32,000 nucleotides of DNA from Pseudomonas aeruginosa (lineage in GTDB: Bacteria; Pseudomonadota; Gammaproteobacteria; Pseudomonadales; Pseudomonadaceae), in NCBI RefSeq assembly GCF_001457615.1, contig NZ_LN831024.1, positions 3,990,001 through 4,022,000 of the forward strand, given 5' to 3'. Shown here piece by piece: positions 1,558 through 22,393 of the stretch (positions are counted from its first letter, which is position 1; each line of letters begins with the position of its first letter). The notes beneath the pieces were generated by a model that did not search any database, was not told where the DNA came from, and was given only the letters and a program-made list of their open reading frames with translations. Position numbers and translations under genes: made by a program.

Positions 1558-1608
1558 GGCGAAACAGAGGAAAAGGCGCGCGGCGCTCCCATGCACACGG
1601 AGGTGCAC

Positions 1609-3231: not shown

Positions 3232-3257
3232 GACAAGGCAGGTCGAGGAGCTCAGGC

Positions 3258-3674: not shown

Positions 3675-3689
3675 GGGTTGACTCCGTGT

Positions 3690-4449: not shown

Positions 4450-5040
4450 ATGAACCCTCGTGAACATGGAAAACGATCGATCGATAACGAGACACGCAGT
4501 GCGCTCAAGCACCAACGCCCAGCGGTCATCTGGCTGACCGGGTTGAGTGGCGCTGGAAAATCCACTATTGCGAATGCCCTGGAACTAGCGCTTTTCGAAC
4601 AGAAGAAACATACGTTTCTCCTGGACGGCGACGATCTCCGCCTTGGCCTGTGCCGAAACCTTGGCTACAGCGACGAAGATCGCACCGAGAACATTCGAAG
4701 AATCGCGGAAGTGGCAAAGATCCTGCTGGAAGCCGGCCTTATCGTGATCGTGGCAACCATCTCGCCATTTTCGCGAGACAGGCGCCTCTCTCGGGAACTT
4801 ATCGGCATCGAGCATTTCATCGAGGTCTTTGTCGACACGCCGCTCTCGGAATGCGAGAGAAGAGATCCCAAAGGCCTGTACAGGAAAGCACGCTCGGGCA
4901 AGATAGAAAACTTCACCGGGATCGACTCGATCTACGAAACGCCCGCACAGCCGGACATAACGATCGATACACTTTCAGAAGACCCCAACCTGGCGGTGAA
5001 GCGAATCATTTCCTACCTGGAGACGAACCAGCCAGCCTGA
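4450..5040 (+). CDS. cysC: adenylyl-sulfate (APS) kinase
   Basis: P-loop WLTGLSGAGKSTIA, then LDGDDLRLGL, ISPF, and the PKGLYRKARSG..FTGIDS.YE.P signature of APS kinases. GC is lower than the flanks. It is the only + strand gene of the central block. Confidence 0.9.
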   Translation: MNPREHGKRSIDNETRSALKHQRPAVIWLTGLSGAGKSTIANALELALFEQKKHTFLLDGDDLRLGLCRNLGYSDEDRTENIRRIAEVAKILLEAGLIVIVATISPFSRDRRLSRELIGIEHFIEVFVDTPLSECERRDPKGLYRKARSGKIENFTGIDSIYETPAQPDITIDTLSEDPNLAVKRIISYLETNQPA

Positions 5041-5096
5041 CAAGATGATTAGGCCTGGAGGCACGAACCGTCCACCGCACCACTTCCAGCTTGCGC

Positions 5097-6320
5097 TCAG
5101 GGACACCCCGTCTCGCTGCCGAACAGACGGGACAGGTTTCGCAAGGGTTTCGTGAAACGCCAGAAGCGACTGTCCAATATAGCCATCAAACGGGCGTGAG
5201 TATCATCGCGATCTATCTGCGTGCGCCGTAGCAAGTTGTCCGTTTCGGCGAGAGTGCGCTGAGCGGAAACAAGCTCTTCGCGACACGCCGACAATCGCCG
5301 AGAAAGTTCCCGCATGGCTCGTTCGTTCTGTTCGTCCCGAGCACCGGCCTCAAGCAAGCGATCTCTCAGTCCATCGTTCAGTTGCCTCTGTGCGGTACAG
5401 CTCATGGCCAGGTCAGCCACCTGCTCGCTGAACCGCGTCATGCTCTCGTTGTGGGACGAAGCCGATTGCCAGAGTTGCCTGTCCAGCTCCCCCACGTACT
5501 CCAGCAACGGCATCGCTCTGCTGAATTCCCGCTCCAGGCCTTTCCACCCTTCGATGTCGAACCGGTCCACGGCAAGCTGCTGCAGTGCCTCATGCACCTC
5601 GAGCAGCGCCTGAAAGCTTCCCGCTGCGGCAGCCAACGCGCTCGCATCATGGGATGAGTGACGCAATGCGACATCCAGGACATCACCGACGAAGCGGGCA
5701 CAAGCCGACTCGTCCACCGGCAAGGAAAGTCGATGGCCAATACGGCCCAGTTCCTGTTGCGGCAGAGCCAGCAATCGATCGTAGTCGACCACCACGGCCC
5801 CCTTGTGGAGCGCCCACTGCATCGAGCGACAGGAGTGTTCGTACCAGAGCATCAGGCTCTTTTCCCGACTCAAGTGGTCACGGGCAGCAAGAGACTCCGC
5901 GACACTAAGAGGATGGCGAGCCGCAATGACATAGTCGACCCATAGCCCCAATGCATCGAACGCGGCTTGCCAGATCGGCATCAGACGCGGCATACGCGGA
6001 TCCTTGATACCCAGCAGCGCCTTGCCTGCCAGTAGCTCAGTCAAAAGCGCCATGGCCTGCTGGACGATCTCTTCGAATCGCTCGACGCCCAGCACCCGGC
6101 GACTGGACAACCCGACGTCGCCCGACGAAAACCCGCACAGGGCCAGGACTCTGTCATTGAAAGCCACCAGGCGGGCATCTTCCCAGTATCCCTTGGGGTT
6201 GTCCGGCCTGGGTGGGATCAGATTCTCGCCAAACTCAACCCCGAGCGCCTCGAGTCCGGCGGAAAGTACGCTCGTACCGGAGCGATGCATGCCGAGAATC
6301 ACCACCACCCTGGGCGTCAT
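5097..6320 (-). CDS. PAPS-type sulfotransferase domain fused to a ~110-aa C-terminal coiled-coil region (407 aa)
   Basis: A 5'-PSB-like motif VVILGMHRSGTSVLS sits at the N-terminus, and a 3'-PB-like motif reads IAARHPLSVAES. The C-terminal third (about 5166-5495) is heptad-like and rich in charged residues and Leu (ELDRQLWQS...RELSRRLSACREELVSAQRTLAETDNLLRR). The tail ends RFWRFTKPLRNLSRLF. I prefer the ATG at 6320 because of the AGGGAGG 7-8 nt upstream; an alternative ATG is at 6341. Confidence 0.8.
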   Translation of the reverse strand: MTPRVVVILGMHRSGTSVLSAGLEALGVEFGENLIPPRPDNPKGYWEDARLVAFNDRVLALCGFSSGDVGLSSRRVLGVERFEEIVQQAMALLTELLAGKALLGIKDPRMPRLMPIWQAAFDALGLWVDYVIAARHPLSVAESLAARDHLSREKSLMLWYEHSCRSMQWALHKGAVVVDYDRLLALPQQELGRIGHRLSLPVDESACARFVGDVLDVALRHSSHDASALAAAAGSFQALLEVHEALQQLAVDRFDIEGWKGLEREFSRAMPLLEYVGELDRQLWQSASSHNESMTRFSEQVADLAMSCTAQRQLNDGLRDRLLEAGARDEQNERAMRELSRRLSACREELVSAQRTLAETDNLLRRTQIDRDDTHARLMAILDSRFWRFTKPLRNLSRLFGSETGCP

Positions 6321-6341
6321 GGATGAAACCTCCCTATTCAT

Positions 6342-8117
6342 TCAGTGTTTCCTGATCTTTTGCCAAAGCGCCTTCGCCCCGAATGTGCGCAAGAAGAACA
6401 CCCCCTTCGCGCATCGCTCCAGGAATCTTGAAAAACGGCCGTGCTTCTGGATATCCAGCCGGCAGCGCAATCCGTTTGCCAGTCGGTAGGACGCCCATTG
6501 CATGGACAGCCTGGCCGCCCCCAGGGCAGGCACCGGACTATCCGTGCAAACGCCGCATGGAGTCGAAACCGGCACGCGTTCCAGCAACTCCCGCAAACGC
6601 CGCTCGAAAAGAGACAAGGTGAATGCTTCGCGGATGCGGCGTGCGGAGTTCTGCCCCATCCGCCTCAGCATTTCCGGTTCGCGCATGAGGCTCTCGAGCC
6701 TAGCGGCGTAATCCCTGGCCTCTCGTTCGGCATCGCGCCGCGGAACAAGGAAGCCGCAGTGGGCAGAGACCAGTTCTGCGTGACCGCCGACATCGGCTGC
6801 GACTATGGCCATTCCGCACGCCATCGCCTCGTAGAGAACCAGTGCGATACCTTCGCCGGCCGATGGCAGGAAAAATATATCGGAGGCCTGGAACAACTCG
6901 CGCAACGCAGCCTCGTCCTGCCAGCCCAGCATCCGTACCCGCCCGGCCAAGCCATGGCGCCGGAGGTCGTTCCGCAGCTCCCCTGCCAGCTCGCCATCGC
7001 CCAGCACCAACGCGACGAAATCACTACCACGGCGCGCCAACTCGCCAAGGCTGGCGGCAAACAGCTCCGGTCGTTTCTGCGCGCAGAGCCGCCCCGCATA
7101 GGCGATCACTACGCACTGCGGAGCTATTCCCAGGCGCGCCCGGACCTTCGCGCGCGTCAGGCTGTCGGGTTTCCACGAGTCCACATCGGCGAACCAGTGC
7201 AACACCTCGACCTTGCTCGCCTCGACGCCACGGTCGAGCAGCCAGTGGCGCAGGTGCCCGGATACGACCCAGTGCCTGTCCAGCAAGGCAGTGCATCGAG
7301 CGGCTCTACCCGGATGGCCGCCATCGTCCCAGCCCTCCTCCATATGATTGAGGTCGACCACGGGCAGGCCCGGGTAGCGGGTCCGGACGTACCCCAGCAC
7401 GTCATAGGCGAATGCAGAGTTGGAAAGCAGCATCAGGTCGGGTTGTCGACTGTCCACCAGATAAGCAAGGAAGCCGCAAGCTTTCTCGGCAGACAGAAAG
7501 TCCGGAAGCACCCAGACATCCGCAGTGAGCGCGGTAAAACGATCCCGCCACCGATGCTCGGCCGCCAGGCTGGCGACCACCGTCAGCATCCAGCCCTCCC
7601 GGGCCAAGGCTCGAAGCAGATCCAGATTGCAACGATCCGCTCCGCCTGGCTCAAGCCAGGGCGCCAGCAGCAACAGGCGCTTTCCCGGGGCCTTAGGCAA
7701 GCTCCCCGGCGCCAGCATGGCCGACGAGCAAGGCTGCCTGCGCCCGTTCAGCCTTGCGCCAATACGGCCCTCGGGCAACGACCTGCGACTGACGAAGAGG
7801 TCGCCGCGTCGCGCATCTTCGCGGAGTTCGACCCACGGCAGGGTCGGTCGGGACAGCAGGAACCAGATCGCCTCTTCCAGAGCAGTCGCCCTCAGGGCTG
7901 CCGGTGCTCGCGGCAAGTACAGTACCGCCATCCCCTCTACCGGAAGACAGTCACTGTCCACTCCTGGGCAATGAATCCAGCGCCAGCGTTTCAGCGTCTG
8001 CGTCTCGAGAAATGCGGCGATTCGTTCGAGCTCCTCCACGCTGCAATCGCAGGCCGTGAGGATGGACAGCAACGGCACGGCATCGGCGACGGGACCTCGC
8101 GAAAGAACCTTCACCAC
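6342..8117 (-). CDS. GT4-family (GT-B) glycosyltransferase with ~150-aa N-terminal extension of unknown function (591 aa)
   Basis: The C-terminal half shows GRLCAQKRPELF...LGDGEL... and an E-x7-E motif, EGIALVLYEAMACGMAIVAADVGGHAELV. The GTG start (8117 or 8114) overlaps the upstream stop (GTGA). Confidence 0.85.
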   Translation of the reverse strand: MVKVLSRGPVADAVPLLSILTACDCSVEELERIAAFLETQTLKRWRWIHCPGVDSDCLPVEGMAVLYLPRAPAALRATALEEAIWFLLSRPTLPWVELREDARRGDLFVSRRSLPEGRIGARLNGRRQPCSSAMLAPGSLPKAPGKRLLLLAPWLEPGGADRCNLDLLRALAREGWMLTVVASLAAEHRWRDRFTALTADVWVLPDFLSAEKACGFLAYLVDSRQPDLMLLSNSAFAYDVLGYVRTRYPGLPVVDLNHMEEGWDDGGHPGRAARCTALLDRHWVVSGHLRHWLLDRGVEASKVEVLHWFADVDSWKPDSLTRAKVRARLGIAPQCVVIAYAGRLCAQKRPELFAASLGELARRGSDFVALVLGDGELAGELRNDLRRHGLAGRVRMLGWQDEAALRELFQASDIFFLPSAGEGIALVLYEAMACGMAIVAADVGGHAELVSAHCGFLVPRRDAEREARDYAARLESLMREPEMLRRMGQNSARRIREAFTLSLFERRLRELLERVPVSTPCGVCTDSPVPALGAARLSMQWASYRLANGLRCRLDIQKHGRFSRFLERCAKGVFFLRTFGAKALWQKIRKH

Positions 8118-9333
8118 GCCGTCCTGCCCACGGAAAACACCTTGGAGATTCCGCGGGTCCGCCTGAAGTTATCGATGAAAGCCGACCATTGCCGCTCGTG
8201 CAGCAGGTCGTCCAGCCAGTAGATGGCGCTCGCCCTCTCCAGCAGCCAGCCCGGGAGTTTTCGGCACCCACCGGCAATGACGAAAACCGTCGAGGACGCT
8301 GGCAGCTCATCGAATTGTCGACGCCATGCGTTCCAGTCCTCGGTGAGCGGCGCGTCGGCCACCACGGCTACCGCATCGGATATGACGGCGTTGTATTGGT
8401 CGGCGCGGGAGAGGTTGAGCAGAGGAGGATATGCCCAGCAGTCGTAATAGCCTTGCCGCTGCGCTCGAAGAAATGGACTCCCTCGATAGAAGCGAGGATG
8501 GCGAGTCCGCATGCGCTTGTAAGAACTCAAGGCATGACGTTTGCCGGTCTCCAGTCTGGAGCCGACCTGGCGGTGATAGAACAACAGGGGTTCCCTGATC
8601 AGCCTGCCTCGCACCCCACATCCGACCAGGGCGATCCAGAAATCCCAATCCTCGAACTGTGCCTGCCTGGCTTCGTCGAAACCGCCTACCGCCAGCCAGT
8701 CATCGCGATGAAAGATCGCAGAGACACAGAACGGATTGAAGTAACGCAACAGTCCGGGATGAAAGCCGGCGGAACGATGCAGCCGCTGCTCCTCTCCCAC
8801 CACCTGGACCCAGCTGTACGCCAGGCGGACGCCAGAGTTTCCCTCCAGCAAGACCAGGCACTTTTCCAAATAGGTGGACGCCAGCCAGTCATCCGCATCC
8901 AGGCAACAGATATAACGCCCCTCGCCCGCGCCACACCGGCATTCCGCGCTGCGGATGGCCCACGATTGGGCTGGCGCAGGAGCGTCATGCCGGGCTCCTG
9001 GAGAGCCTCGAGGAGGTCCAGGGTCGAAGGGTCATCAGAACCATCGTCGACCAGAATGATCTCGAAGTCCTGGAAGCTCTGCCGGGCCAGGCTATCAAGC
9101 GCGCGCCTCAAATACCTCCCATGGTTGAAGCAGGGAATGACCACGCTCAGCAGGGGCTTCTGCGGATCCCACGGAGTGGCGTGTCCGGAAACCTGCCGGA
9201 GCGCCGAGGCCGAACCGATATCGAGGACAAGATGGACCAGGAGCCTTCCCTTCTCTCCCAGCCACGAACGAAAAGCAGGCGGTAGGGAAAATAGCAGACG
9301 TTGCAGAAAATGGGCCGACCTCACGCCCTTCAC
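8111..9333 (-). pseudogene. GT2-family glycosyltransferase interrupted by a -1 frameshift (two ORFs, 8686-9333 and 8111-8869)
   Basis: The upstream ORF carries LLSVVIPCFNHGRYLRRALDSLARQSF, EIILVDDGSDD and PSAARNAGVARARG. The expected continuation RYICCLDADDWLASTYLEKCLVLLEG... is in the other frame. The switch maps to the C4 run at 8918-8921 (G4 on the coding strand). One extra G would restore a 407-aa protein. Confidence 0.75.
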
Positions 9334-10813
9334 CTGGACACCGGTTCGGTTTCCATGGAGACCTCTTGCTCAGGCCGCACGCCCCCAGGCAGGTAGCCGG
9401 GTATGTTCCTGGCCGCATCCCTGAATGCGGCCCAGCCATGACGTCGCGTCAGCAACTCGCGGGCGCGTTTCACCCGTCTCGCCGTCTCCCCGGGATTGCC
9501 CAGCGCACTCCTGATTGCCCTTGCGAACTCGCCGGCATCGGCGTCAGCGCCGACCAGATAGCCCGTTTCGGTATTCAGGAACTCAGCGATACCCCGACGT
9601 CGGGGGCGACTATGGGCAGCCCTGCAGCAGTGGCTTCGAGCAGGATGTTCGGCAAGCCGTCATAGCGAGAGGTATACAGCAACATCGCATATCGCCCCTG
9701 CCGAGCCAGGGCCTGGAAGGAGTCGTAACGCCCATGAAGCCTGACATTCGGCAGGCGTCGCAGCTTCCTCTGGGTTTCTCCCCTGCAAGCAGGATCGACC
9801 TCGCCGTGGACTTCGAACAGGTATTCGGGAAGCGCCAGGGCAATCTCGTAGAGCAGGTCCGGCCTTTTCTGCGGCGAGATACGGCTGGCCCAAAGAATCG
9901 TCGAGCCTGCGGTCGGAATCGCCTCTGCATGGTCGCTGGCGGGAAAGTAGAGCCCATGCATGAGCTCCGGCGGAATGCCGTCCCGCTCGTGAATCTGTTG
10001 GAGGAAGGTCCGGTTATCCGAAAGCAGGCCCGCCAGGTGCATCCAGGACCGTGGGAGGAACTCGCTGGCATAGCCGCAGCGAACCGCATTGCCGTCCAGG
10101 TCGTCGCAAAAGACGCTGGCGTAAATCCGCTTACCCTCGAACGTCAACGTCTTGCCATGCCGCTCGAGCAGTTCCCAGGCCAGTTGCGAGTTGATGATGT
10201 GGATACTCCTGGCAGGACATTGCAGCAAAAGGCGCAGCAGTACCAGGCGCCGGTCCTCCTCGCCAAGCAGATTGCCCAGGCGTCCGAACTCCACCACCCG
10301 AACCTCCGCCGGAAGCCGGTTGAGCCAGGGAGACACCACATCCCGCGTGACCACTACCGTCACCTTCACGCCCATCTCGGCGCATAACCGCACATGATGC
10401 AGGATTCCCAGGTCAGCGCCACCACGCTGCAAATGCGGGACGAGGAAGACCATATCCGGCGCATATTCGATGAAGTCCGCCAGACATCCCCGGTACAGTT
10501 GCGCCGGTCCGTTATCTATCGGGGCCTTCCAGGAAGTGTAAACGCGCAGCTTCGCCGCCGTGGGATACAGGGCAGGCTCGATCCGGGCCAACGCCTTCAT
10601 TTCGTCGACTATCCATGGCGGCAGCGCCATCGGAGAGGGTGACGGTACGACGACTGCCTCCTTGAGCAACCAGCCCTTCAAACGGTCGCAGACCAGTATG
10701 AAGCGTTGTAGTTGGCGCTCGGAGAGCACCCGCCGCAACGATCCAAGAATAGGTGGATAGGCTGTGCGAGCGAAGCTGGCCGCACGAGCTTTCAGTCTGC
10801 CGTTCAGGCTCAT
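9330..10813 (-). pseudogene. GT4-family glycosyltransferase interrupted by a -1 frameshift (ORF 9575-10813 plus out-of-frame tail to 9330)
   Basis: The ORF ends ...YDGLPNILLEATAAGLPIVAPDVGVSLSS*. The canonical continuation (DVG)GIAEFLNTETGYLVGADADAGEFARAIRSALGNPGETARRVKRARELL... reads in the next frame. The switch is at the C4 run 9592-9595. The restored frame is 494 aa and ends at TGA 9330-9332, overlapping the GTG start of the next gene (GTGA). Confidence 0.75.
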
Positions 10814-10909
10814 CAGGAAAGTTCCACTTGGTAGAAGTGCTGGATGCTCGGCTCATCGATGCGGGGCTGCCGCGGCAGGCATGTGCCTCCCCGGCCCCAG
10901 AGAAGCCGG

Positions 10910-11638: not shown

Positions 11639-11654
11639 AAGGGTTCTCCCGGTT

Positions 11655-14635: not shown

Positions 14636-14645
14636 AGCGAGATCC

Positions 14646-16807: not shown

Positions 16808-16904
16808 CTCGCCTCACCTTGATACGTACAGAGCTGGGTTTTCAGGGGTAAGAACTCCCATCGAGCCCGTCTGTAACGCACTCTCTTTCTACTTACCCAG
16901 TGGA

Positions 16905-16935
16905 AAAGGAGGCGATCGAGAAGATCGCCTCCTTT
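16905..16935 (-). terminator. perfect 13-bp stem / 5-nt loop hairpin between the 601-aa protein gene and galE
   Basis: aaaggaggcgatc (16905-16917) pairs with gatcgcctccttt (16923-16935). On the minus-strand transcript the 3' arm ends in UUU followed by U. It starts 20 nt after the TAA at 16955-16957. Confidence 0.6.
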
Positions 16936-16954
16936 GGCCTGCAGCTAAAGTGAC

Positions 16955-18760
16955 TTAGTTGCGGTTGTTACCAGCCTTGTGGTTCTCCGAGGTGGACGAG
17001 CCATCTTCGTTGAAGTTGCCTTGGGTGGTGGAGGTCATGTTGGTGATGGTGCCATTGGCAGAGCGGATCAGGCCGAGCGCCTCGCAAGTTGGGAACTCGC
17101 CTTCCAGGACCAGACGTGCGCGACCGTTGGCACCGTTCCAGTTGGTACCGTCGATACCGAAGGCCTTGGCTACTTCGGTTACGGTGTACACACCGGTTTC
17201 GTGCGCTTTCAGGGCAGTCTTCCCACTCGAGTCGGTCAGGTAGGTGCTGCCAGTCGCCGGATAACGCTTACCGTTCTGGTCGAACAGTACCCCGCGCACC
17301 TTGCCGTCCCGACCATCGTCGCTGGTGTTGGTCAGACGAATGAAGAACTGGTCGGAAACATTGGAGCCAGGCAGATTGAACAGACTGGCGACGCAACTGT
17401 TCTTCCAGAACTCGTCGAGACGGTTGCCTGCAATGGTACGGTCGACATAGCGTACGTTCTCGAAGTCGACCTTCAGATCACCCACGTCGAAACGTTGCAG
17501 CGCCTGCATCGGCACGGTGCCGGAAGCCTTCACGCAGACGTTGTAGGTCTGGTTGATATTCGAGTTGTCGAACGATACCGGCAAAGTACCGTTGCCCTGC
17601 GCATCCACTACACCTTCGATGGCGGCAGAATTCCAGAGCTTGGCGGCAGACCCCGGATTGGCGGCAAAGGCGGAGCAGTTCCCGGTGGTCAGGCCGATGT
17701 CGCTGATCCCGTTGAAGTTACCCGACAGGGTGCTGGTCACCTTGTCGCCACCGGCGAAACCAAACACGGTTCGACCCGCCTCGTTGAGCACATCCGTATT
17801 GATGCCGAGCCGTACGGCGCCCAGACGCGCATAGTTGGCACCATAATAATCGGTGTTATCGCCACCGACGGACACCGAGGTATCGAAGGAGCGATCCTGA
17901 TTGTTCAGGTTCAACGGATGCAGGACGCGATTCTGCCCATACTGGTTGGTGTTGAGAACGTCCCAGTAAACCGCGGGCAGCGAAGTGAAAATGGTCAGGG
18001 GCGGTGCAGAGTCGTTATTCGCAGGGTTGCCGGCATCGGCGCCAGTGGTGGTATCGAACTGTGCGGAAACCGTGACCTGGAAACGCAATTCGTTCAGCGG
18101 GTCGTTTTGCAGGCTCACTTTCGGATTCCAGGATCCAGCCACGAAGGTGGCATCGCCCTGAAGCGGAGCGCGCATGTTGGTGACCTTGGCAGGCTGGCTG
18201 TCCTGGCTGCTCGGCTCGCGGAAGTTGAAGAACACCACGTTGCCGCCGGTCGCGGTCTGCTTGATCATGTCGGCACCCGCCTGGTCGAGGCGCAGCTCAA
18301 GCGTGTTGTCGGTGGCGCCAGTGCCGCTGGTGATGACGAAGCCGCTACCCGCAGCCAGGGCGCCGATCTTGATCTGGTTGGCGGTCACGGCCTTGGCGAA
18401 GCGCACGACGGTACGACCAAGGGTCAGCTTGATGGTGTGGCCCGCAGCGGCATTTCCAGCCTTCACTGGATCGATGGTGTAGGTAACGCTGGGCAGGTCA
18501 AAGGTAGTTTCTTCGGACTTGTTGCCGAAAATCTCCTGAGCCAGGGTGATGTTGGCCGCCTTGCTATCGAGGTTGGCACCATTTTCCACACTCTTGCCGA
18601 CGACATAGTTGGCCTGTCCTGGTCCGTACTGCTCGGTTGCACCAGGCGAGTTCGCCTCCAGAGTGGGGCTTGTGGCAATAGCAACCACTCCGGCAGCGTT
18701 CGCGACTCCAGCAAACAGTGCCGAAGCTACAGCGGCGCTGAGTAGTGTTCTTTTGAGCAT
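16955..18760 (-). CDS. secreted or surface protein of unknown function, 601 aa, Sec signal peptide, Gly/Asn/Thr/Ser/Ala-rich
   Basis: The ATG at 18760 is preceded by AAGGAG. The signal peptide is MLKRTLLSAAVASALFAGVANA|AG. There are no further hydrophobic segments and only four Cys, and alternating polar/hydrophobic runs suggest a beta-rich fold. Many CGT, GGT, ACC and AAC codons are visible. The ORF-track start at 18895 adds 45 implausible residues. Its position fits PA1383. Confidence 0.8.
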   Translation of the reverse strand: MLKRTLLSAAVASALFAGVANAAGVVAIATSPTLEANSPGATEQYGPGQANYVVGKSVENGANLDSKAANITLAQEIFGNKSEETTFDLPSVTYTIDPVKAGNAAAGHTIKLTLGRTVVRFAKAVTANQIKIGALAAGSGFVITSGTGATDNTLELRLDQAGADMIKQTATGGNVVFFNFREPSSQDSQPAKVTNMRAPLQGDATFVAGSWNPKVSLQNDPLNELRFQVTVSAQFDTTTGADAGNPANNDSAPPLTIFTSLPAVYWDVLNTNQYGQNRVLHPLNLNNQDRSFDTSVSVGGDNTDYYGANYARLGAVRLGINTDVLNEAGRTVFGFAGGDKVTSTLSGNFNGISDIGLTTGNCSAFAANPGSAAKLWNSAAIEGVVDAQGNGTLPVSFDNSNINQTYNVCVKASGTVPMQALQRFDVGDLKVDFENVRYVDRTIAGNRLDEFWKNSCVASLFNLPGSNVSDQFFIRLTNTSDDGRDGKVRGVLFDQNGKRYPATGSTYLTDSSGKTALKAHETGVYTVTEVAKAFGIDGTNWNGANGRARLVLEGEFPTCEALGLIRSANGTITNMTSTTQGNFNEDGSSTSENHKAGNNRN

Positions 18761-18964
18761 GAGAAAATAACTCCTTGAAGCGTTTATATTGAGCATTCCA
18801 GTCAAGTGTCCATCTTTGGACGACACGCTAATGATCATGTATCGGTAATCAACCAACACATCGACAGGCCTGACACCATGAATACTTCCAATCATTCCGG
18901 TGATACCGATCGAATTGACGCCCAGCCACTACCTGAAGTGGCCACATAGGCACCAACGGATGGC

Positions 18965-18993
18965 TTTATATAATTGCCAAAGCACCTCAGCAA
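18965..18993 (-). promoter_or_regulatory. candidate sigma70-type promoter for the 601-aa protein gene (TTGCTG-N17-TATAAA)
   Basis: On the minus strand the -35 TTGCTG (+ strand 18988-18993) and the -10 TATAAA (+ strand 18965-18970) are separated by a 17-nt spacer. This would give a ~200-nt leader. It is a pattern match in AT-rich DNA only. Confidence 0.25.
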
Positions 18994-19278
18994 TAGCAAA
19001 AAGTGCGTTTTCACCTCTTCCTATTTAATAAATGAATTTTCCTACGGAAGAAGGTAAAAACAAAAACCTTAAAATAGAGAAAATTCTTAAGAATATCCAA
19101 GCGATCACGAACAAACGTTTCTAAAAACCGGGTCACACCCAGAAGTAAAAGGCTACTTCTGAGCATTTAGAAAGAAGATTCGCAATAGATTTTTATGGAT
19201 GGATACGGCCCGGAAAGTTCCAGGCCTATCGGGGACCACGACGAGAGTCGTCTAGATGAGTGTTGCAGGTGACCGACC

Positions 19279-21558
19279 TCATTCCATACGGCAGGCGCCC
19301 GGTCTATCGGAGCAGGCCAGTGTCTTGCTCAGCATGGCGCGCAGCTTTTCCGTCACTTCCCTGGCATCGGCATCACTTTCCAGCACGTAAGGCTGGATCA
19401 ACATGATGACTTCTTCACGGGTCTTCACGGCTTTCTGGCGTCCGAAGAGGAAACCGATCCCGGGAATGTCCTTCAGGAGAGGCACGCCAGCGTTGGAGTC
19501 CGTTATGTTGTCCCGAATCAGCCCCCCCATCAGCACCGACCCACCGCTTTTCAACGTAAGCGATGTTTCCAGCGACGTCCTGGAAATCTCCGGAGCGCTG
19601 ATTCCTCCGCCACTGGCCTTGCCACCGCCGCCGGAAGAACCGCCACTGTCGCTCAACTCCTGGCTGACCGTAAGATCGACCCGACTATCCGAGTAGACTA
19701 CGGGGGCGACATTCAGAATTGTGCCGGTAGAGCGGTAGGCAATTTCATTGCGCAGGTTGGTGCTTCCAGCAGTGGTGCTGTCGTCATTGACCTGGGCCGT
19801 TGGGATAGGAATATCCCGACCGACATTGATGTTGGCCTGCTCGCCGCTCTTGACCAAGATACGGGGAGTGGCGAGTACCCGGACTCGTTGATTGTCCGCC
19901 ATTGCCTGGATGGCTGCGGTATTGCCTCCGGCGGTGTTGATGACGTAGTTGAAGCCTCCTTTCCCGGCGCTGCCCTTGCTTCCGGTCGAGGTCGCGCTAT
20001 TGAAACTGCCGTTGAGCATCTCCCACTCCACGCCCAACTCCTGGGTGTCGCTGAGACTTACGCTGGCCACCGTCACCTCGATCAATACCTGGCGGGCCGG
20101 CTTGTCCATTTCCCGGAGCAAGCCCTGCATCTGCTGCCAGGTACGCGCCGCTCCTCGGAACAAGATGGCGTTTCGATTCTCGTCCTCCACTATGGTGCCG
20201 CTGCCGCTGATACCGGCCGCCAAGCCACCGAGCAAACCGTTAGCACCGTCGCCCCCCACCAACGCTGCGGCACCTGCGGCTTGCAGCAAGGGAGCCACCG
20301 CCGGTGCCGCACCATCGTCTCCGGCGCGCCTGCCACCGCCAGATCGCTTGGAAGCGCTGCTTTGCAGTCCGGAGGTGATCCCGTAGGCCCCCTCCCCGGC
20401 GAACCCCGATACCAATGCCCGCAACGACTTGGCCAGTTCGGTGACACGGGTATTGCGAGCTTCGTAGAAGAACAGTCCTTCCTTCTCCTCGCCGATACCT
20501 GCGGCAACCGCCATCGGAGCCCTGTCGACCTGCTGCGCCCACTCGCGCACCAAGTCGAGAAGTTGGCCATCGTTGGCGAAGACGATGAGGCCATTGGAAC
20601 TTTCCAGCGGTACCAGCATTATGCTGCCGACCGCTTCGCCGATACCGACGCTGTAGCCTTGCGCCGCAATCACGCTCTTGAGTTGACTGGCCATGTCGGC
20701 AGCACTGACGAAGGCCGGGTCGATACGCAGGCTGTGACGTCCACGCATGAAAGGTTGATCGAGAAGGCGGACGGCTTCGGTGGCCTGGTTGACGATGGAA
20801 GACATGCCCTTGAGCATCAAGCCACTCCGCGCACCATCGGCCATCACGCTCAGGCCGGATTTTTCGTAGGCACTGTTCAACCAGGGAATCACATCCTTGG
20901 GGTCGACGCTGTGCAACGCCACGAATTGAAATACCGGCCGATAGGCAATCGGCACACTAGGCCGTGCTTCGCCACTGATGAGAATGGGCGGCTCGTCCGG
21001 GCTGAGCCCTACCTGCTTGATCTGGAAGCGATAGATATCGCCTTGGTGGAGTATCTCCACGCCGTAGTTGACGAGCACCTGGCGCGCGACTTCGTAGACC
21101 ATCTGTGCAGTCTGCGGCTGTTCCAAACGAACGGTCACGCGATCAGTCTTTTCCTTCAGAGCGCTTTCGATCTCAAACGGCAAACCGAGGATGTTGCCGA
21201 ATACCTCGTTGATGAATGCGGCAAGCTGCACGTCCTCCACGTTCAGACTGATGTCAGCCTTCTTGTCGTCGAGGATCGCCTTGTCCATTCGATCGACTAC
21301 ACCGCCTACGATCGACCGAGGCGATGTGGGCGTGCCACTGAACTCCGTCTTCGGAACAGCCAACGATGCCGGAGCTTTCTTTCCGTCGTCGCTCACCAGG
21401 GCTACGCCCTCGGTTGCCTTGGCTTTTTCCGACTTCGCGAGCAATGGTTCGGGAAACTGCAATGGGGAAGTACTGCAACCTGCCAATAGGGCCAGACAGA
21501 CGACAATGGACAACGGGTGGCGCAAGAAGGCAAAGCTCGGCCTATGGCAAGGGTGCAT
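19279..21558 (-). CDS. secretin (GspD/PulD family) with lipoprotein signal peptide (liposecretin), 759 aa
   Basis: The N-terminus MHPCHRPSFAFLRHPLSIVVCLALLAG|CST contains a lipobox. An N0-like domain reads ISLNVEDVQLAAFINEVFGNILGLPFEI. The C-terminal secretin domain shows VLIEVTVASVSLSDTQELGVEW, VRVLATPRILVKSGEQANINVG and GGLIRDN...GVPLLKDIPGIGFLFG. I prefer the ATG at 21558; an alternative is at 21591. Confidence 0.9.
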   Translation of the reverse strand: MHPCHRPSFAFLRHPLSIVVCLALLAGCSTSPLQFPEPLLAKSEKAKATEGVALVSDDGKKAPASLAVPKTEFSGTPTSPRSIVGGVVDRMDKAILDDKKADISLNVEDVQLAAFINEVFGNILGLPFEIESALKEKTDRVTVRLEQPQTAQMVYEVARQVLVNYGVEILHQGDIYRFQIKQVGLSPDEPPILISGEARPSVPIAYRPVFQFVALHSVDPKDVIPWLNSAYEKSGLSVMADGARSGLMLKGMSSIVNQATEAVRLLDQPFMRGRHSLRIDPAFVSAADMASQLKSVIAAQGYSVGIGEAVGSIMLVPLESSNGLIVFANDGQLLDLVREWAQQVDRAPMAVAAGIGEEKEGLFFYEARNTRVTELAKSLRALVSGFAGEGAYGITSGLQSSASKRSGGGRRAGDDGAAPAVAPLLQAAGAAALVGGDGANGLLGGLAAGISGSGTIVEDENRNAILFRGAARTWQQMQGLLREMDKPARQVLIEVTVASVSLSDTQELGVEWEMLNGSFNSATSTGSKGSAGKGGFNYVINTAGGNTAAIQAMADNQRVRVLATPRILVKSGEQANINVGRDIPIPTAQVNDDSTTAGSTNLRNEIAYRSTGTILNVAPVVYSDSRVDLTVSQELSDSGGSSGGGGKASGGGISAPEISRTSLETSLTLKSGGSVLMGGLIRDNITDSNAGVPLLKDIPGIGFLFGRQKAVKTREEVIMLIQPYVLESDADAREVTEKLRAMLSKTLACSDRPGACRME

Positions 21559-22033
21559 ACAGTTTCCTTTCAAAACCCTGGGTGTTCCCATCCTGCGAGA
21601 ACGAGAAGCGGATTCCTTGTTCAGTGATGCTCTCCAGACGCTCGCCGCCAGGCAGAGTGGCGCCCGCCGCAAAACGCCGCAGAGGCCCCTCGGCGCTTTT
21701 GGCAACAAGGGCGAAGATGCCGCCTTCATCGCGGACAATGCCGCGTAGCAGCCAATCGACCTTGATTAGCGCCACTCCATCCACGCCCACCGAAACCCGC
21801 TTCGATTCAGCTTCGCGCTCCTCGTCCACGGTTCTCCCCCACCACGACATTCCAGCCAACTTGCCGGCAACCGTCGTATCAACCGCAACGGACGGAACTT
21901 CCGCCAGAACCCACTTCCGGGCTTCAGGAGTGGGCAAGGCGGAAAGATCGGCACTCGGAGCAAAGACAAGTCCGGCAAAGATGGAAGCGACCAGAAGCAG
22001 AAGATTCCAGCGAGCAAAGGCATGAGGCGTCAT
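21542..22033 (-). CDS. single-pass membrane protein with GspC-HR/PilP-like C-terminal domain (163 aa)
   Basis: The N-terminal anchor is WNLLLLVASIFAGLVFA. The C-terminal stretch WLLRGIVRDEGGIFALVAKSAEGPLRRFAAGATLPGGERLESITEQGIRFSF fits the l.L.Gi....g..A.i......r....G..lpGG..l..I....v.l pattern of secretin-binding HR domains. It overlaps the secretin start by 17 nt. Codons ending in T are frequent, which is atypical for this genome. Confidence 0.55.
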   Translation of the reverse strand: MTPHAFARWNLLLLVASIFAGLVFAPSADLSALPTPEARKWVLAEVPSVAVDTTVAGKLAGMSWWGRTVDEEREAESKRVSVGVDGVALIKVDWLLRGIVRDEGGIFALVAKSAEGPLRRFAAGATLPGGERLESITEQGIRFSFSQDGNTQGFERKLYAPLP

Positions 22034-22393
22034 TGGGTTTGCAAATGGCAGGATGGAAAGCGATGAGTTGAAGATGCGGGAAGTGTGGCATTTATAGAAA
22101 ATTGAAAATCCTGAGTTAGAAGTAAGAAAACTCCCAACTTACAAGTCGTAAAACCCAATCATTTCGAGACTCCATCGCCAAGCACGCAAGGACCCGACCA
22201 TTACGGCAGGCGGCACCGGATGGATAGGCAAACAGTGCAGTCGGTACGGGTAACGGCTTGCACACCCCGCGCAGGATTCGCGTCACTCGGCCAGGACTGT
22301 CACTGCACCGAGACGCCAACAGCGGCAATGCAACCGACATTCACCTAGCGAACTCGGCCAAGAGCAGGAAGGCGAACCGACTCCACGCTCGCC

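What the first reader, a model, noticed from the sequence alone, without database searches (positions are those of the whole stretch)
4450..22033. Uncharacterised composite locus: PAPS-dependent sulfated-glycan assembly line joined to a private secretin module and a large secreted protein
Within one lower-GC block sit the following components:
- an APS kinase (PAPS supply);
- two independent sulfotransferase domains;
- seven glycosyltransferase domains (three GT4, two GT2-type, one GT8-like, plus the GT2-like small protein);
- GalE;
- a Wzt-type ABC ATPase with a glycan-binding-like C-terminal domain;
- a 601-aa signal-peptide protein;
- a lipoprotein secretin with a GspC/PilP-like partner.
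All except cysC are co-oriented, and many are start/stop-overlapped. My inference is that they form a single system. It would build a sulfated, probably galactose-containing glycan by the ABC-transporter route and export or display the 601-aa protein through its own secretin. The closest architectural precedent I know is the Aeromonas S-layer locus, where a structural protein, a dedicated PulD-type secretin (SpsD/ApsE pathway) and O-antigen genes are needed for tethering. Sulfated bacterial surface glycans are rare; known cases include rhizobial Nod factors and LPS and mycobacterial sulfolipids. From memory, the syntenic PAO1 block (PA1381-PA1393) was once listed as a putative exopolysaccharide cluster, with no biofilm phenotype and no product ever assigned.
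Basis: partly seen in the sequence, partly recalled or inferred. Interest (0 to 1): 0.85.

Follow-up and report, generated by a model that had tools for sequence, protein, structure and literature searches.

The report
Truncated surface-protein, secretion and sulfated-glycan cluster
This Pseudomonas aeruginosa block is what is left of a gene cluster, conserved in many Gammaproteobacteria, that pairs a dedicated type II secretion machine and its S-layer-like surface protein with an ABC-transporter pathway for a probably sulfated surface glycan; P. aeruginosa has lost the transporter's membrane subunit and most of the secretion machine.

Summary
The listed genes are present at the stated coordinates, in a lower-GC block that matches P. 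aeruginosa PA1381-PA1393.

Three corrections to the observation:
- I can support six glycosyltransferase (GT) domains, not seven.
- Two GT genes are broken in this strain by 1-nt deletions at 8921 and 9595.
- There is no Wzm permease gene in the window.

In 16 of 19 species that carry a PA1383 homologue, that gene sits beside a complete T2SS, and 18 of 19 have a sulfotransferase nearby. The closest relatives read wzm-gspEFGHIJKLM-C-D-PA1383-galE-GT4-wzt-sulfotransferases/GTs. This is the same order as the Aeromonas salmonicida A-layer/O-antigen cluster (wzm | T2SS + vapA | wzt | sulfotransferase-domain gene | GTs).

The "private secretin module" is therefore the C+D stub of a full T2SS. P. aeruginosa has deleted wzm through gspM.

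PA1383 is a 61-kDa acidic all-beta protein. Its C-terminal domain shows a short profile match to the S-layer protein Slr4.

The retained genes are intact in most strains, look constrained in one two-strain comparison, and are expressed. They probably borrow Wzm and a T2SS platform encoded elsewhere, but this is untested.

Verdict: a new variant of a known kind, with moderate to high interest.

The parts
4450..5040 (+). cysC, APS kinase; supplies PAPS
   Evidence: PF01583 at E 1.8e-64. A cysC gene sits next to the homologue of the 414-aa sulfotransferase in Cellvibrionaceae loci L012, L013, L020 and L023.
5097..6341 (-). Gene B: sulfotransferase head followed by a long coiled coil and a conserved SxSWRxTxPLR tail; candidate chain terminator or ruler
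   Evidence: Pfam Sulfotransfer_3 at 21.4 bits, below cut-off. LGMHRSGTS, KDPR and RxPx5Sx3R are invariant in alignment A5. AF2 predicts helices at 264-332 and 337-406 with pLDDT 74-86. Cellvibrio homologues are fused to a GT2 domain.
6342..8117 (-). Gene C: GT4 glycosyltransferase, 591 aa, with an unassigned N-terminal region of about 150 aa
   Evidence: Glycos_transf_1 at E 1.9e-29 and Glyco_transf_4.
8111..9333 (-). Gene D: GT2 glycosyltransferase, split in this strain into ORFs 8686-9333 and 8111-8869
   Evidence: GT2 N-terminal half at E 6e-22. The window has a 1-nt deletion at 8921 relative to L004, where the gene is an intact 407-aa ORF. Intact 404-407-aa alleles are common.
9575..10813 (-). 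Gene E: GT4-type glycosyltransferase, truncated to 412 aa in this strain
   Evidence: The Glyco_trans_1_4 match stops at 110 of 142 profile positions. A 1-nt deletion at 9595 causes the truncation, and L004 has the 494-aa form. The 412-aa allele is seen on 1 contig; one 494-aa allele is seen on 170.
10910..11683 (-). Gene F: small GT2-like protein; the likely start is at 11638
   Evidence: PF00535 at 25.5 bits. The gene is duplicated in the P. schmalbachii, P. citronellolis, P. delhiensis and P. jinjuensis loci.
11655..13436 (-). Gene G: two-domain enzyme with a GT-A (GT8-like) domain and a sulfotransferase domain; the most widely conserved enzyme partner of the PA1383/T2SS pair
   Evidence: Sulfotransfer_3 at 50.9 bits. 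FLDSD, YFNAG, PWLDQ, HYH, ITGIPRSGTS and RHPxDTxxSW are invariant or conserved in alignment A4. PF01501 matches 3 of 12 homologues. Homologues occur in 14 of the 19 genome loci and in L001, L002 and L026.
13358..14635 (-). Wzt: ABC ATPase with a C-terminal carbohydrate-binding domain; no Wzm partner in the window
   Evidence: ABC_tran plus Wzt_C. tblastn with three Wzm proteins finds nothing in the window. Wzm lies upstream of gspE in L024, L026 and L147, and next to wzt in L017.
14646..15797 (-). GT4 glycosyltransferase, 383 aa; its start overlaps the galE stop
   Evidence: Glyco_trans_1_4 at E 2e-29.
15794..16807 (-). GalE-type UDP-hexose 4-epimerase
   Evidence: Epimerase at E 1.8e-51. Cellvibrio loci carry rmlBDAC in this position instead.
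16905..16935 (-). Terminator-like hairpin immediately after the PA1383 stop codon
   Evidence: 13-bp stem, -26.3 kcal/mol, z -4.1, and 0 of 200 shuffles fold as well.
16955..18760 (-). PA1383-family secreted protein, 601-aa precursor: candidate S-layer-like surface protein and T2SS substrate
   Evidence: Signal peptide ending ANA-AG. The mature protein is 61 kDa, pI 5.0, with 4 invariant Cys. AF2 gives an all-beta multidomain model, pLDDT 67. There are 201 family representatives. The gene is adjacent to a T2SS in 16 of 19 species. The C-terminal domain HMM hits Slr4 at 19.5-20.3 bits.
18761..19278 (-). AT-rich intergenic region of 518 bp with a weak terminator-like site at 19128-19142; probable own promoter and leader of PA1383
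   Evidence: GC about 0.50; sequence; scan.
19279..21558 (-). Lipoprotein secretin of GspD type (PA1382)
   Evidence: Secretin, Secretin_N and N0. GspD model covered over its full length at 254.8 bits. It is 57-77% identical to the terminal gene of complete T2SS operons. pN/pS is 0.14 against a second strain.
21542..22033 (-). GspC-like inner-membrane partner (PA1381), 163 aa
   Evidence: T2SSC at E 0.009. It is homologous to the gene between gspM and gspD in relatives, at 36-63% identity. The exact sequence is seen on at least 1000 contigs.
22034..22247 (.). AT-rich region upstream of PA1381, ending at the point where two P. aeruginosa genome arrangements diverge; edge of the wzm-gspM deletion
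   Evidence: The alignment with L004 stops at window position 22247. No remnant of gspE-M exists anywhere in the window.

Best explanation
**What it is.** The block is the P. aeruginosa remnant of a conserved gammaproteobacterial supercluster with this order: wzm - gspE F G H I J K L M - gspC-like - gspD - PA1383-family protein - (galE or rml genes) - GT - wzt - sulfotransferases and GTs - cysC.

**How the intact system works.** Steps marked S are shown by sequence or comparison. Steps marked I are inferred.
1. (S) CysC makes PAPS.
2. (I) GTs build a polyprenol-linked glycan on the cytoplasmic face of the inner membrane. The sugar is a UDP-hexose via the GalE-type epimerase here (which hexose is not resolved) and probably rhamnose in Cellvibrio.
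3. (S for the domains, I for the substrate) The GT-A + sulfotransferase enzyme G and the sulfotransferase + coiled-coil enzyme B sulfate the glycan.
4. (I) By analogy with WbdD and WbbB, B or G caps the non-reducing end and sets chain length.
5. (S for the parts, I for the ligand) Wzm/Wzt export the glycan, and the Wzt C-terminal domain reads the cap.
6. (I) The glycan ends up on the surface, most likely as an LPS-linked O-polysaccharide.
7. (S for the signal peptide and the four invariant Cys; a DsbA gene is adjacent in several taxa) The PA1383-family protein crosses the inner membrane by Sec and forms two disulfides in the periplasm.
8. (I, from conserved adjacency) It is pushed out by the dedicated T2SS.
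9. (I) It binds the anionic glycan as a surface layer or coat, as VapA does on Aeromonas O-antigen.

**State in P. aeruginosa.** A lineage-specific deletion removed wzm through gspM. The surviving genes are intact in most strains, look constrained in a two-strain comparison, and are expressed. The remaining Wzt and the GspC/GspD pair therefore most likely work with a Wzm and a T2SS platform encoded elsewhere, candidates being the CPA Wzm and Xcp or Hxc (I).

**State in this strain.** Two GT frameshifts probably break or alter the glycan line.
For: **The complete form exists in relatives**
- Closest relative L147 (PA1383 83%, GspD 77%, GspC 63% identical) carries wzm-gspE..M-C-D-PA1383.
- L026 shows the whole order through to the GTs.
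- The P. schmalbachii, P. citronellolis, P. delhiensis and P. jinjuensis loci are the same.

**The linkage is conserved more widely**
- Of 19 species loci, 16 have the T2SS adjacent. Two are contig-edge cases, and M. resinovorans lacks it.
- 18 of 19 have a sulfotransferase nearby.
- 11 of 19 have wzt.
- Four Cellvibrionaceae loci have cysC.
- L017 has wzm and wzt side by side.

**Only part of it is in the window**
- Only gspC-like and gspD are present, and there is no wzm.

**A characterised cluster has the same order**
- The A. salmonicida cluster has the same order and a sulfotransferase-domain ORF after wzt. In that work, wzt and GT mutants lose O-antigen and the vapA mutant loses the A-layer (PMC4483657).
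- Slr4 and NpdA S-layer genes also sit beside dedicated T2SS operons (PMC7821379, PMC10765051).

**PA1383 looks like a surface protein**
- Its C-terminal HMM hits Slr4 residues 444-497 at 19.5-20.3 bits. The best of 1923 shuffles scores 9.8.
- Its size, pI and composition are S-layer-like.
- It is monocistronic, with a strong terminator hairpin after the stop.

**Sulfotransferase motifs are conserved**.

**The remaining genes appear to be maintained in P. aeruginosa**
- pN/pS against a second strain is 0.08-0.24 for PA1383, the secretin, Wzt and G.
- The exact PA1381 sequence is on at least 1000 contigs.
- PA1383 is transcribed, translated and seen by mass spectrometry in PAO1 (PMC8850804).
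- PA1383 was found in a surface-shaving proteome of a CF isolate (PMC8959810).
- A PA1382 mutant has altered phage sensitivity (bioRxiv 10.1101/2025.04.03.646983).

**Known mechanism used for the analogy**
- Wzt carbohydrate-binding-domain recognition of a terminal modification, and WbdD chain-length control, are established (PMC9445017 and PMC3482155, listed).
Against: **No chemistry or microscopy**
- No sulfated glycan and no S-layer has been reported for P. aeruginosa or any carrier of this cluster, as far as the held literature shows.

**Homology to known S-layer proteins is thin**
- The Slr4 match covers only about 54 residues.
- NpdA does not match.
- VapA could not be tested.
- The AF2 model is of moderate confidence, and Foldseek against the PDB gives only generic Ig-like or pilin hits with TM below 0.25.

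**Expression is not S-layer-like**
- PA1383 expression in PAO1 is near the median, not the extreme level typical of S-layer genes.
- That paper also cites it as repressed by MvaT and MvaU.

**The sulfotransferase may serve the protein rather than an O-polysaccharide**
- Some distant loci (L001, L019, L022) have enzyme G but no wzt nearby.

**Missing functions at the locus**
- There is no initiating transferase, ligase or oligosaccharyltransferase gene.
- Whether an orphan GspC/GspD pair can dock onto Xcp or Hxc, or an orphan Wzt onto another Wzm, is untested.

**Signs of decay**
- M. resinovorans and Pseudomonas sp. BN415 keep PA1383 and the glycan genes with no T2SS genes in the 10 kb upstream, so the dedicated machine is dispensable or replaceable.
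- This strain has two broken GT genes.

**Small numbers**
- The pN/pS values rest on few substitutions, for example 16 synonymous against 7 non-synonymous in the secretin.
Confidence: 0.6

Rival explanations
1. In P. aeruginosa the block is an evolutionary relic. After wzm and gspE-M were lost, neither the glycan nor the protein can be exported. The genes are silenced and are slowly decaying, with no current function as a system.
For: - wzm and gspE-M are missing.
- This strain has two GT frameshifts.
- The resinovorans and BN415 lineage shows no T2SS genes in the 10 kb upstream of PA1383.
- The lower GC and the repression by MvaT and MvaU cited in PMC8850804 fit a xenogeneically silenced island.
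- Shorter secretin entries of 438-455 aa exist in the protein collection.
- No product or phenotype appears in the held literature.
Against: - Intact ORFs dominate the population. The exact PA1381 sequence is on at least 1000 contigs, the secretin cluster has 1249 member sequences, and the 494-aa GT4 allele is common.
- pN/pS against a second strain is 0.08-0.24.
- PA1383 is transcribed, translated, detected by mass spectrometry and reported under purifying selection (PMC8850804).
- PA1383 was detected in a surface-shaving proteome.
- A PA1382 transposon mutant has a phage-sensitivity phenotype.
- The short secretin entries may be gene calls cut at contig ends.
Confidence: 0.2
2. The glycan is not an LPS anchor. 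It is attached covalently to the PA1383-family protein, making an S-layer-type glycoprotein. Alternatively, the protein itself is the sulfotransferase substrate. The route would resemble the ABC-transporter-dependent S-layer glycan clusters of Geobacillus and Paenibacillus, or RaxST-type tyrosine sulfation.
For: - Enzyme G stays next to the T2SS and PA1383 gene even where wzt is absent from the locus held (L001, L019, L022).
- In L001 and L019 it lies inside the T2SS gene string.
- The nearest solved sequences to the sulfotransferase domain of G are protein-tyrosine sulfotransferases, E 3e-4 over the PAPS loop only.
- From my own knowledge, S-layer glycan clusters beside S-layer genes that use Wzm/Wzt are known in Gram-positive bacteria.
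Against: - No oligosaccharyltransferase or ligase-family gene is present in the window or in the loci examined.
- The TPST match is confined to the generic PAPS-binding loop.
- In the only characterised parallel, A. salmonicida, the glycan genes make O-antigen, and a vapA deletion leaves the LPS profile unchanged.
- A Sec-exported protein would have to be modified before export, or by a periplasmic enzyme that is not encoded here.
Confidence: 0.12
3. The two halves are functionally independent neighbours. One is an ordinary O-antigen or EPS cluster, and a T2SS-plus-substrate cassette happened to insert into it. This is how the Aeromonas authors describe their cluster. There would be no mechanistic coupling.
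For: - wzm and wzt are separated by the T2SS-plus-substrate cassette in Pseudomonas and in A. salmonicida, which looks like an insertion.
- The glycan modules vary between taxa: galE and GT4 genes, rml genes, or LicD and RgpF.
- L024 and L025 carry wzm plus the T2SS with a different downstream cargo and no PA1383.
- Terminators separate the units.
Against: - The association recurs in lineages as distant as Pseudomonas, Cellvibrio, Alteromonas, Oleiphilaceae, Permianibacter and Nitrincola, with different gene orders. One chance insertion would not explain that.
- wzm overlaps gspE by 10-23 nt in L024, L026 and L147, which suggests co-transcription.
- The sulfotransferase G tracks the PA1383 and T2SS pair rather than wzt.
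- From established knowledge, the Aeromonas A-layer needs O-antigen for tethering.
Confidence: 0.08

Closest known systems
Aeromonas salmonicida A-layer / wb_salmo supercluster (VapA, the Sps T2SS, and Wzm/Wzt O-antigen genes; PMC4483657)
   Same: - The gene order matches: wzm, then a full T2SS, then the surface-array protein gene as the last gene of the cassette, then wzt, then a sulfotransferase-domain ORF, then GTs and an epimerase.
- The glycan is made by the ABC-2 route.
- The block has lower GC than the genome.
- The substrate is an acidic, signal-peptide protein of roughly 50-60 kDa.
   Different: - Homology between PA1383 and VapA was not tested, because no VapA sequence could be obtained.
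- The cluster here carries two large sulfotransferase enzymes plus cysC, against one 216-aa ORF of unknown role in Aeromonas.
- The P. aeruginosa version lacks wzm and gspE-M.
- No S-layer or product has been demonstrated.
Slr4 S-layer protein of Pseudoalteromonas tunicata with its adjacent dedicated T2SS (PMC7821379)
   Same: - An experimentally shown S-layer protein encoded directly next to a T2SS operon, and conserved in marine Gammaproteobacteria.
- Similar size: a 579-aa precursor, against a 579-aa mature PA1383.
- Profile-level similarity in the C-terminal domain at the equivalent position, 19.5-20.3 bits with none of 1923 shuffles coming close.
   Different: - The match covers about 54 residues only.
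- Single-sequence search finds no relation.
- Slr4 has two cysteines at positions unrelated to the four conserved in the PA1383 family.
- A linked sulfotransferase or Wzt module is not described for Slr4.
NpdA S-layer protein with an upstream 12-gene gsp cluster (Paracidovorax, Delftia and other genera; PMC10765051)
   Same: The logic is the same: an S-layer protein gene next to a dedicated T2SS, spread across Beta- and Gammaproteobacteria including Nitrincola and Thiotrichales.
   Different: There is no sequence relation. The PA1383 family HMMs score NpdA at 5.5 bits or less.
ABC-transporter-dependent O-polysaccharide pathways with a terminator enzyme and a Wzt carbohydrate-binding domain (E. 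coli O9a WbdD; Klebsiella O12 WbbB; PMC3482155, PMC9445017)
   Same: - A Wzt with a Wzt_C domain.
- A modifying enzyme (gene B) with a catalytic head plus a long coiled coil, fused to a GT in Cellvibrio. This is the architecture of chain-length rulers and terminators.
   Different: - The head is a sulfotransferase rather than a kinase/methyltransferase or a Kdo transferase. I found no report of a sulfate cap in the held library.
- wzm is displaced upstream of a T2SS operon in relatives and is absent here.
Orphan and lipoprotein secretins of P. aeruginosa (XqhA, HxcQ); from my own knowledge
   Same: - A secretin gene outside a complete T2SS operon.
- A lipobox, as in the self-piloting liposecretin HxcQ.
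- XqhA is reported to substitute for XcpQ, which is a precedent for mixing parts between machines.
   Different: - PA1382 keeps its own GspC-like partner and its presumptive substrate next door.
- Its origin by deletion from a full T2SS is shown here.
- Cooperation with Xcp or Hxc is untested.

Membership tests
Type II secretion system (complete machine) | Secretin GspD with N0, N1-N3 and secretin domains | tested here: met
   Secretin at E 3e-43, three Secretin_N stretches, and a faint N0. The TIGR02517 GspD model is aligned over positions 1-600 at 254.8 bits, below the 351 cut-off.
Type II secretion system (complete machine) | GspE ATPase, GspF, L and M platform, and GspG-K pseudopilins encoded with the secretin | tested here: not met
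   tblastn with the E-M proteins of L002 and L003 finds nothing in the 32-kb window. All of them are present in L002, L003, L006-L009, L024, L026 and L147.
Type II secretion system (complete machine) | GspC partner of the secretin | tested here: met
   The 163-aa ORF is 36-63% identical to the gene between gspM and gspD in relatives. Pfam T2SSC is only at E 0.009.
ABC-transporter-dependent (Wzm/Wzt) polysaccharide pathway | Wzt nucleotide-binding subunit, here with a C-terminal carbohydrate-binding domain | tested here: met
   ABC_tran at E 1.6e-21 and Wzt_C at E 4.4e-20.
ABC-transporter-dependent (Wzm/Wzt) polysaccharide pathway | Wzm (ABC-2) permease | tested here: not met
   No tblastn hit in the window. 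The gene is present upstream of gspE in L024, L025, L026 and L147, and next to wzt in L017.
ABC-transporter-dependent (Wzm/Wzt) polysaccharide pathway | Terminating or chain-length enzyme that creates the non-reducing-end cap | tested here: inconclusive
   Gene B has a sulfotransferase head plus a coiled coil, which is an architectural analogy only. There is no biochemical evidence.
ABC-transporter-dependent (Wzm/Wzt) polysaccharide pathway | Polyprenol-phosphate initiating transferase, and ligation to lipid A-core | not tested
   Neither function is encoded in the window. They would have to be supplied from elsewhere (WbpL or WecA, and WaaL).
Bacterial S-layer proteins secreted by a dedicated T2SS (VapA, Slr4, NpdA) | Structural gene adjacent to a dedicated T2SS operon | tested here: met
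   Met in relatives, in 16 of 19 species loci. In the window only the C+D stub remains.
Bacterial S-layer proteins secreted by a dedicated T2SS (VapA, Slr4, NpdA) | Sequence homology to a demonstrated S-layer protein | tested here: inconclusive
   Slr4 gives a local hit in the C-terminal domain at 19.5-20.3 bits, z about 16 against shuffles, over about 54 residues. phmmer is negative. NpdA is negative. VapA was not obtainable.
Bacterial S-layer proteins secreted by a dedicated T2SS (VapA, Slr4, NpdA) | Forms a paracrystalline lattice and is among the most abundant cell proteins | not testable with these tools
   This needs electron microscopy and proteomics. In PAO1 the RNA-seq and Ribo-seq levels are near the median (PMC8850804).
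PAPS-dependent sulfotransferases (Sulfotransfer_1 and Sulfotransfer_3) | 5'-phosphosulfate-binding loop and 3'-phosphate-binding motif | tested here: met
   Gene G has ITGIPRSGTS and RHPxDTxxSW conserved across 12 homologues, with Pfam at 50.9 bits. Gene B has LGMHRSGTS and RxPx5Sx3R invariant across 7 homologues, with Pfam below cut-off.
Glycosyltransferase family 8 | GT-A fold with the DxD, NAG, DQ(D) and His motifs in order | tested here: inconclusive
   The motif order is present and invariant in alignment A4. PF01501 matches 3 of 12 homologues, best E 0.0014, and does not match the window protein. There is no PDB sequence match.

The most novel reading that the evidence does not exclude
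A widespread, undescribed class of gammaproteobacterial cell-surface system. In it, a T2SS-secreted S-layer-like protein of the PA1383 family is tethered to a dedicated sulfated O-polysaccharide. Export of that polysaccharide is gated by a sulfate cap, which is written by a sulfotransferase-coiled-coil terminator and read by the Wzt carbohydrate-binding domain. P. aeruginosa keeps a minimal GspC/GspD adaptor that routes PA1383 through one of its general T2SS platforms, giving this pathogen a cryptic, MvaT-silenced surface coat.
Probability: 0.2. Interest if true: 0.85.

Novelty: new variant of a known kind. Interest (0 to 1): 0.62.

Why it matters
PA1381-PA1393 is a 17-kb block in a major pathogen. 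It is present in most strains and has no product assigned in the held literature. Seeing it as the stub of a T2SS, surface-protein and Wzm/Wzt-glycan supercluster turns an unannotated list of enzymes into specific experiments.
- It names relatives with the complete system in which to do genetics, such as P. citronellolis, P. schmalbachii and Cellvibrio.
- It predicts a secreted substrate and a sulfated glycan.
- It poses a clean question about modularity: whether an orphan GspC/GspD pair and an orphan Wzt can plug into heterologous machines.

If the sulfate-cap idea holds, it would add a new terminal signal to the ABC-transporter O-antigen model. If PA1383 forms a surface layer, it would be a new surface antigen and possibly a phage or immune shield in P. 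aeruginosa. If instead the block is a relic, it documents stepwise decay of an S-layer-type system: complete in a close relative (L147), C+D only in P. aeruginosa, and none in M. resinovorans.

Tried and rejected
**Searches that found nothing**
- Megablast of the block against plasmids gave no match.
- Foldseek of the PA1383 model against the PDB gave only generic Ig-like, pilin or integrin matches with TM below 0.25.
- A profile of the PA1383 family against PDB sequences gave nothing below E 0.1.
- ARAGORN found no tRNA gene at the island borders.

**Libraries or papers not available**
- Matsukawa & Greenberg 2004 (PMC438629) is not held, so the "putative EPS cluster" history is unverified.

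**Searches that added little**
- The third homologous-protein search, run with a broad family alignment to obtain source names such as "S-layer" or Aeromonas, returned essentially the first hit list with no new names.
- The listing of cluster members on ten distant family members gave only "hypothetical protein", one of them from Beggiatoa.

**Attempt to obtain vapA**
- I scanned metagenome contigs for a published vapA PCR primer. Of the 120 matching stretches, none had the second primer within 900 nt. VapA homology is therefore untested.

**Ideas tested and rejected**
- NpdA as a homologue of PA1383: rejected, at 5.5 bits or less.
- The roughly 0.9-kb gap between the PA1383 homologue and wzt in Cellvibrio as a wzm gene: rejected, it encodes a DsbA-like protein.
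- The secretin as a polysaccharide exporter: rejected, because it is the terminal gene of a full T2SS in relatives.
- Capsule-type ABC export: not favoured, because no KpsD/KpsE-type genes were seen.

**Low-confidence result**
- Single-sequence AF2 of gene B was of low confidence in the catalytic domain (pLDDT below 50). It is used only for the C-terminal helices.

Full report
**Observation**

The window is high-GC (0.65-0.73), with a lower-GC block (0.50-0.65) from about 3500 to 22500.
- cysC at 4450-5040 on the plus strand.
- On the minus strand, a 414-aa sulfotransferase-like protein (gene B, 5097-6341).
- A 591-aa GT4 (gene C, 6342-8117).
- A GT2 (gene D, 8111-9333).
- A GT4-type protein (gene E, 9575-10813).
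- A small GT2-like protein (gene F, 10910-11683).
- A 593-aa two-domain protein with a C-terminal Sulfotransfer_3 domain (gene G, 11655-13436).
- Wzt with a Wzt_C domain (13358-14635).
- A 383-aa GT4 (14646-15797).
- A GalE-type epimerase (15794-16807).
- A 601-aa signal-peptide protein with no Pfam or NCBIfam family (16955-18760).
- A 759-aa lipoprotein secretin (19279-21558).
- A 163-aa GspC-like protein (21542-22033).

The 601-aa protein is 99.7-100% identical (reported as 100%) to a P. aeruginosa protein cluster of 625 member sequences. Papers on PA1383 and its antisense ORF olg2 identify the block as PA1381-PA1393. The right flank carries AraC, SDR, AceK and PdxB genes, which from my memory of the PAO1 gene map is the PA1380-PA1375 order.

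Corrections to the observation:
- I can support six GT domains, not seven.
- D and E are each broken in this strain by a single-base deletion in a short C run, at 8921 and 9595. Another P. aeruginosa assembly (L004, 98.97% identical over 15.3 kb) has both genes intact.
- The truncated 412-aa E allele matches exactly one NCBI protein from one 6.32-Mb genome. Intact alleles are on hundreds of contigs. The breaks are therefore strain-specific, or assembly errors.
- There is no Wzm gene anywhere in the window.

**What the surroundings in other genomes show**

I looked up contigs encoding PA1383 homologues. I then scanned one genome per species with a family alignment and mapped every locus with tblastn. 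The result is consistent.

In P. schmalbachii, P. citronellolis, P. delhiensis, P. jinjuensis and several metagenomic Pseudomonas contigs, the secretin is the last gene of a complete T2SS operon (gspE, F, G, H, I, J, K, L, M, then the PA1381-like gene, then gspD). The PA1383 homologue and the same glycan genes follow in the same order.

Looking 10 kb upstream of the secretin in three relatives shows an ABC-2 permease gene (wzm). It lies immediately upstream of gspE and overlaps it by 10-23 nt. It is 42-43% identical to the wzm that sits next to wzt in an Oleiphilaceae locus.

The full unit is therefore wzm-gspE...M-C-D-PA1383-galE-GT4-wzt-G-F-E-D-C-B, with cysC beside B. The closest relative found (L147; PA1383 83%, GspD 77%, GspC 63% identical) has the complete left half.

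P. aeruginosa, in two different genomic arrangements (the window and L004), has only C and D. M. resinovorans and Pseudomonas sp. BN415 show no T2SS genes in the 10 kb upstream. The P. aeruginosa state is best read as a lineage-specific deletion of wzm through gspM. Its edge lies in the AT-rich 214 bp upstream of PA1381. This is also where the two P. aeruginosa arrangements stop being alignable, at window position 22247.

**Breadth of the association**

The PA1383 family has 201 representatives at E below 1e-3 among 1.8 billion cluster representatives. Across the 19 species loci:
- 16 have the T2SS adjacent. Two are cut by a contig end, and M. resinovorans lacks it.
- 18 have at least one sulfotransferase homologue within 10 kb.
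- 11 have wzt.
- Four Cellvibrionaceae loci have cysC next to B.

The carriers include Alteromonas, Ningiella, Cellvibrio, Oleiphilaceae, Nitrincola, Permianibacter and Pseudohongiellaceae.

The sugar-supply module varies:
- galE in Pseudomonas.
- rmlBDAC in Cellvibrio.
- LicD and RgpF proteins in Alteromonas.

In Cellvibrio, Oleiphilaceae and the distant locus L001, a DsbA-like gene follows the PA1383 homologue. This fits the four cysteines that are invariant in the family. Gene orders differ between lineages: the T2SS is divergent in Alteromonadaceae and split around the substrate in L001 and L019. The association is therefore not one inherited accident.

**The proteins**

PA1383:
- The mature protein is 579 aa, 61 kDa, pI 5.0, rich in Ala, Gly, Asn and Thr, with four Cys.
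- AF2 with an 18-sequence alignment gives an all-beta, multidomain model with mean pLDDT 67 and good confidence in residues about 90-200 and 340-560.
- Foldseek against the PDB returns only generic Ig-like, pilin and adhesin folds.

Enzyme G:
- Its N-terminal domain has invariant FLDSD, YFNAG, PWLDQ and HYH motifs. That is the GT8 motif order, as I recall it from LgtC. PF01501 matches 3 of 12 homologues.
- Its sulfotransferase domain has both PAPS-binding motifs.

Enzyme B:
- It has invariant PAPS motifs, a variable region that AF2 models as two helices of about 70 residues each, and a conserved SxSWRxTxPLR tail.
- In Cellvibrio it is fused to a GT2 domain.

From established knowledge, P. aeruginosa assimilates sulfate through APS reductase. 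A separate APS kinase therefore fits a dedicated PAPS supply.

**Transcription units**

- PA1383 is followed at once by a 13-bp hairpin (-26.3 kcal/mol, z -4.1).
- It is preceded by a 518-bp AT-rich gap containing a weak terminator-like site.
- The likely units are PA1381-82, PA1383 alone, and galE through B.
- A monocistronic, terminator-flanked structural gene is what S-layer genes usually look like. This is an inference.

**Comparison with known systems**

The published A. salmonicida A450 cluster reads rmlBDAC-wzm-[spsE..L, hypothetical genes, vapA]-wzt-216-aa sulfotransferase-domain ORF-wbbB-... In that work:
- wzt and GT mutants lose O-antigen.
- The vapA mutant loses the A-layer but keeps O-antigen (PMC4483657).

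That architecture is the one found here, down to the split wzm/wzt and the sulfotransferase after wzt.

Two other demonstrated S-layer proteins, Slr4 and NpdA, are also encoded beside dedicated T2SS operons. I took their sequences from the papers' supplements and tested them:
- An HMM of the PA1383 family C-terminal domain hits Slr4 at the equivalent C-terminal position (residues 444-497) with 19.5-20.3 bits. The best of 1923 shuffles scores 9.8.
- phmmer sees no relation to Slr4.
- NpdA scores 5.5 bits or less.
- VapA could not be obtained.

Membership in a known S-layer protein family is therefore unproven. The way the system is built matches the Aeromonas and Slr4 kind.

The B architecture and the Wzt_C domain match the terminator and carbohydrate-binding-domain logic of ABC-transporter O-antigen pathways (PMC3482155 and PMC9445017, listed). 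I found no report linking Wzt with a sulfotransferase.

**Is the P. aeruginosa remnant alive?**

For function:
- The exact PA1381 sequence is on at least 1000 contigs, and the secretin cluster has 1249 member sequences.
- pN/pS between two strains is 0.14 for the secretin, 0.08 for PA1383, 0.15 for Wzt and 0.24 for G, from small counts.
- PA1383 is transcribed, translated, detected by mass spectrometry and reported under purifying selection in PAO1.
- PA1383 is listed as extracellular in a surface-shaving proteome of a CF isolate, and is up-regulated with cupA1 in an nrdR mutant.
- A PA1382 mutant is more phage-sensitive in a preprint screen.

Against function:
- wzm and gspE-M are lost.
- This strain has two frameshifts.
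- The resinovorans lineage has lost the T2SS completely.
- Expression is only median-level, and repression by MvaT and MvaU is cited.
- No product or phenotype appears in the held literature.

I judge continued function with borrowed partners more likely than pure relic status. Candidate partners, from my own knowledge, are the CPA Wzm and Xcp or Hxc. This is inference.

**Verdict**

It is wrong that the secretin module is self-contained and that the ABC route is complete. The finding is best described as a truncated member of a conserved, uncharacterised variant of the T2SS-plus-S-layer-plus-O-antigen supercluster, distinguished by heavy investment in sulfation.

Noticed in passing
window 16979-18745 (+), antisense to the PA1383 gene: A 588-aa antisense ORF lies entirely inside the PA1383 gene. 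It corresponds to the published overlapping gene olg2 (PMC8850804), but here it has a different start and a longer extent than described for PAO1. The same block holds other long antisense ORFs: 6441-8222 (593 aa) and 19888-21489 (533 aa). ORF length alone is therefore weak evidence in this GC-rich DNA.
   Followed up: partly
window 22247 (right edge of the block); L004 positions 1-6512: Another P. aeruginosa assembly is 99% identical up to this point. It then continues into MFS, glutathione peroxidase, FadL-like, TetR, hydrolase and rhodanese genes instead of the AraC and SDR genes of the window. From my memory of the PAO1 map, these look like PA1286-PA1292. A paper on clone ST395 lists PA1246-PA1292 and PA1381-PA1450 as parts of one deleted 131-kb block (PMC5695207), which is compatible with that adjacency. 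The island edge is therefore a rearrangement breakpoint within the species.
   Followed up: partly
window 8921 and 9595: Single-base deletions in short C runs break the GT2 gene and truncate the GT4 gene. The truncated allele is found in only one public genome. These may be genuine strain-specific pseudogenes or homopolymer sequencing errors.
   Followed up: partly
L024 and L025 (Pseudomonas sp.), positions 12962-17228: The same wzm plus complete T2SS (secretin 72% identical) is followed not by a PA1383 homologue and glycan genes but by an LpoB-like lipoprotein and four proteins with no recorded Pfam family. There is no wzt within 10 kb. This may be a cargo swap on the same machine.
   Followed up: no
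L001:11702-12334, L017:11692-12363, L020:11761-12411: A DsbA-like thioredoxin gene sits directly after the PA1383 homologue in distant lineages, matching the four invariant cysteines of the family. Pseudomonas loci lack it.
   Followed up: partly
window 5097-6341 (C-terminus of gene B) and its homologues in alignment A5: A conserved SxSWRxTxPLR motif closes the coiled-coil region in all seven homologues, whether or not a GT2 domain follows. Its role is unknown; it could be a membrane or partner docking site.
   Followed up: no
L005 7425-9122 and L148 7431-9029: In M. resinovorans and Pseudomonas sp. BN415, which lack the T2SS, a winged-helix (Trans_reg_C) plus TPR regulator lies upstream of the PA1383 homologue. 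It may be a dedicated regulator.
   Followed up: no
window 30500-32000: A second drop in GC, to 0.47-0.52, occurs at the right end of the window, with a GNAT acetyltransferase ORF at 31226-31750. This may be another acquired segment.
   Followed up: no
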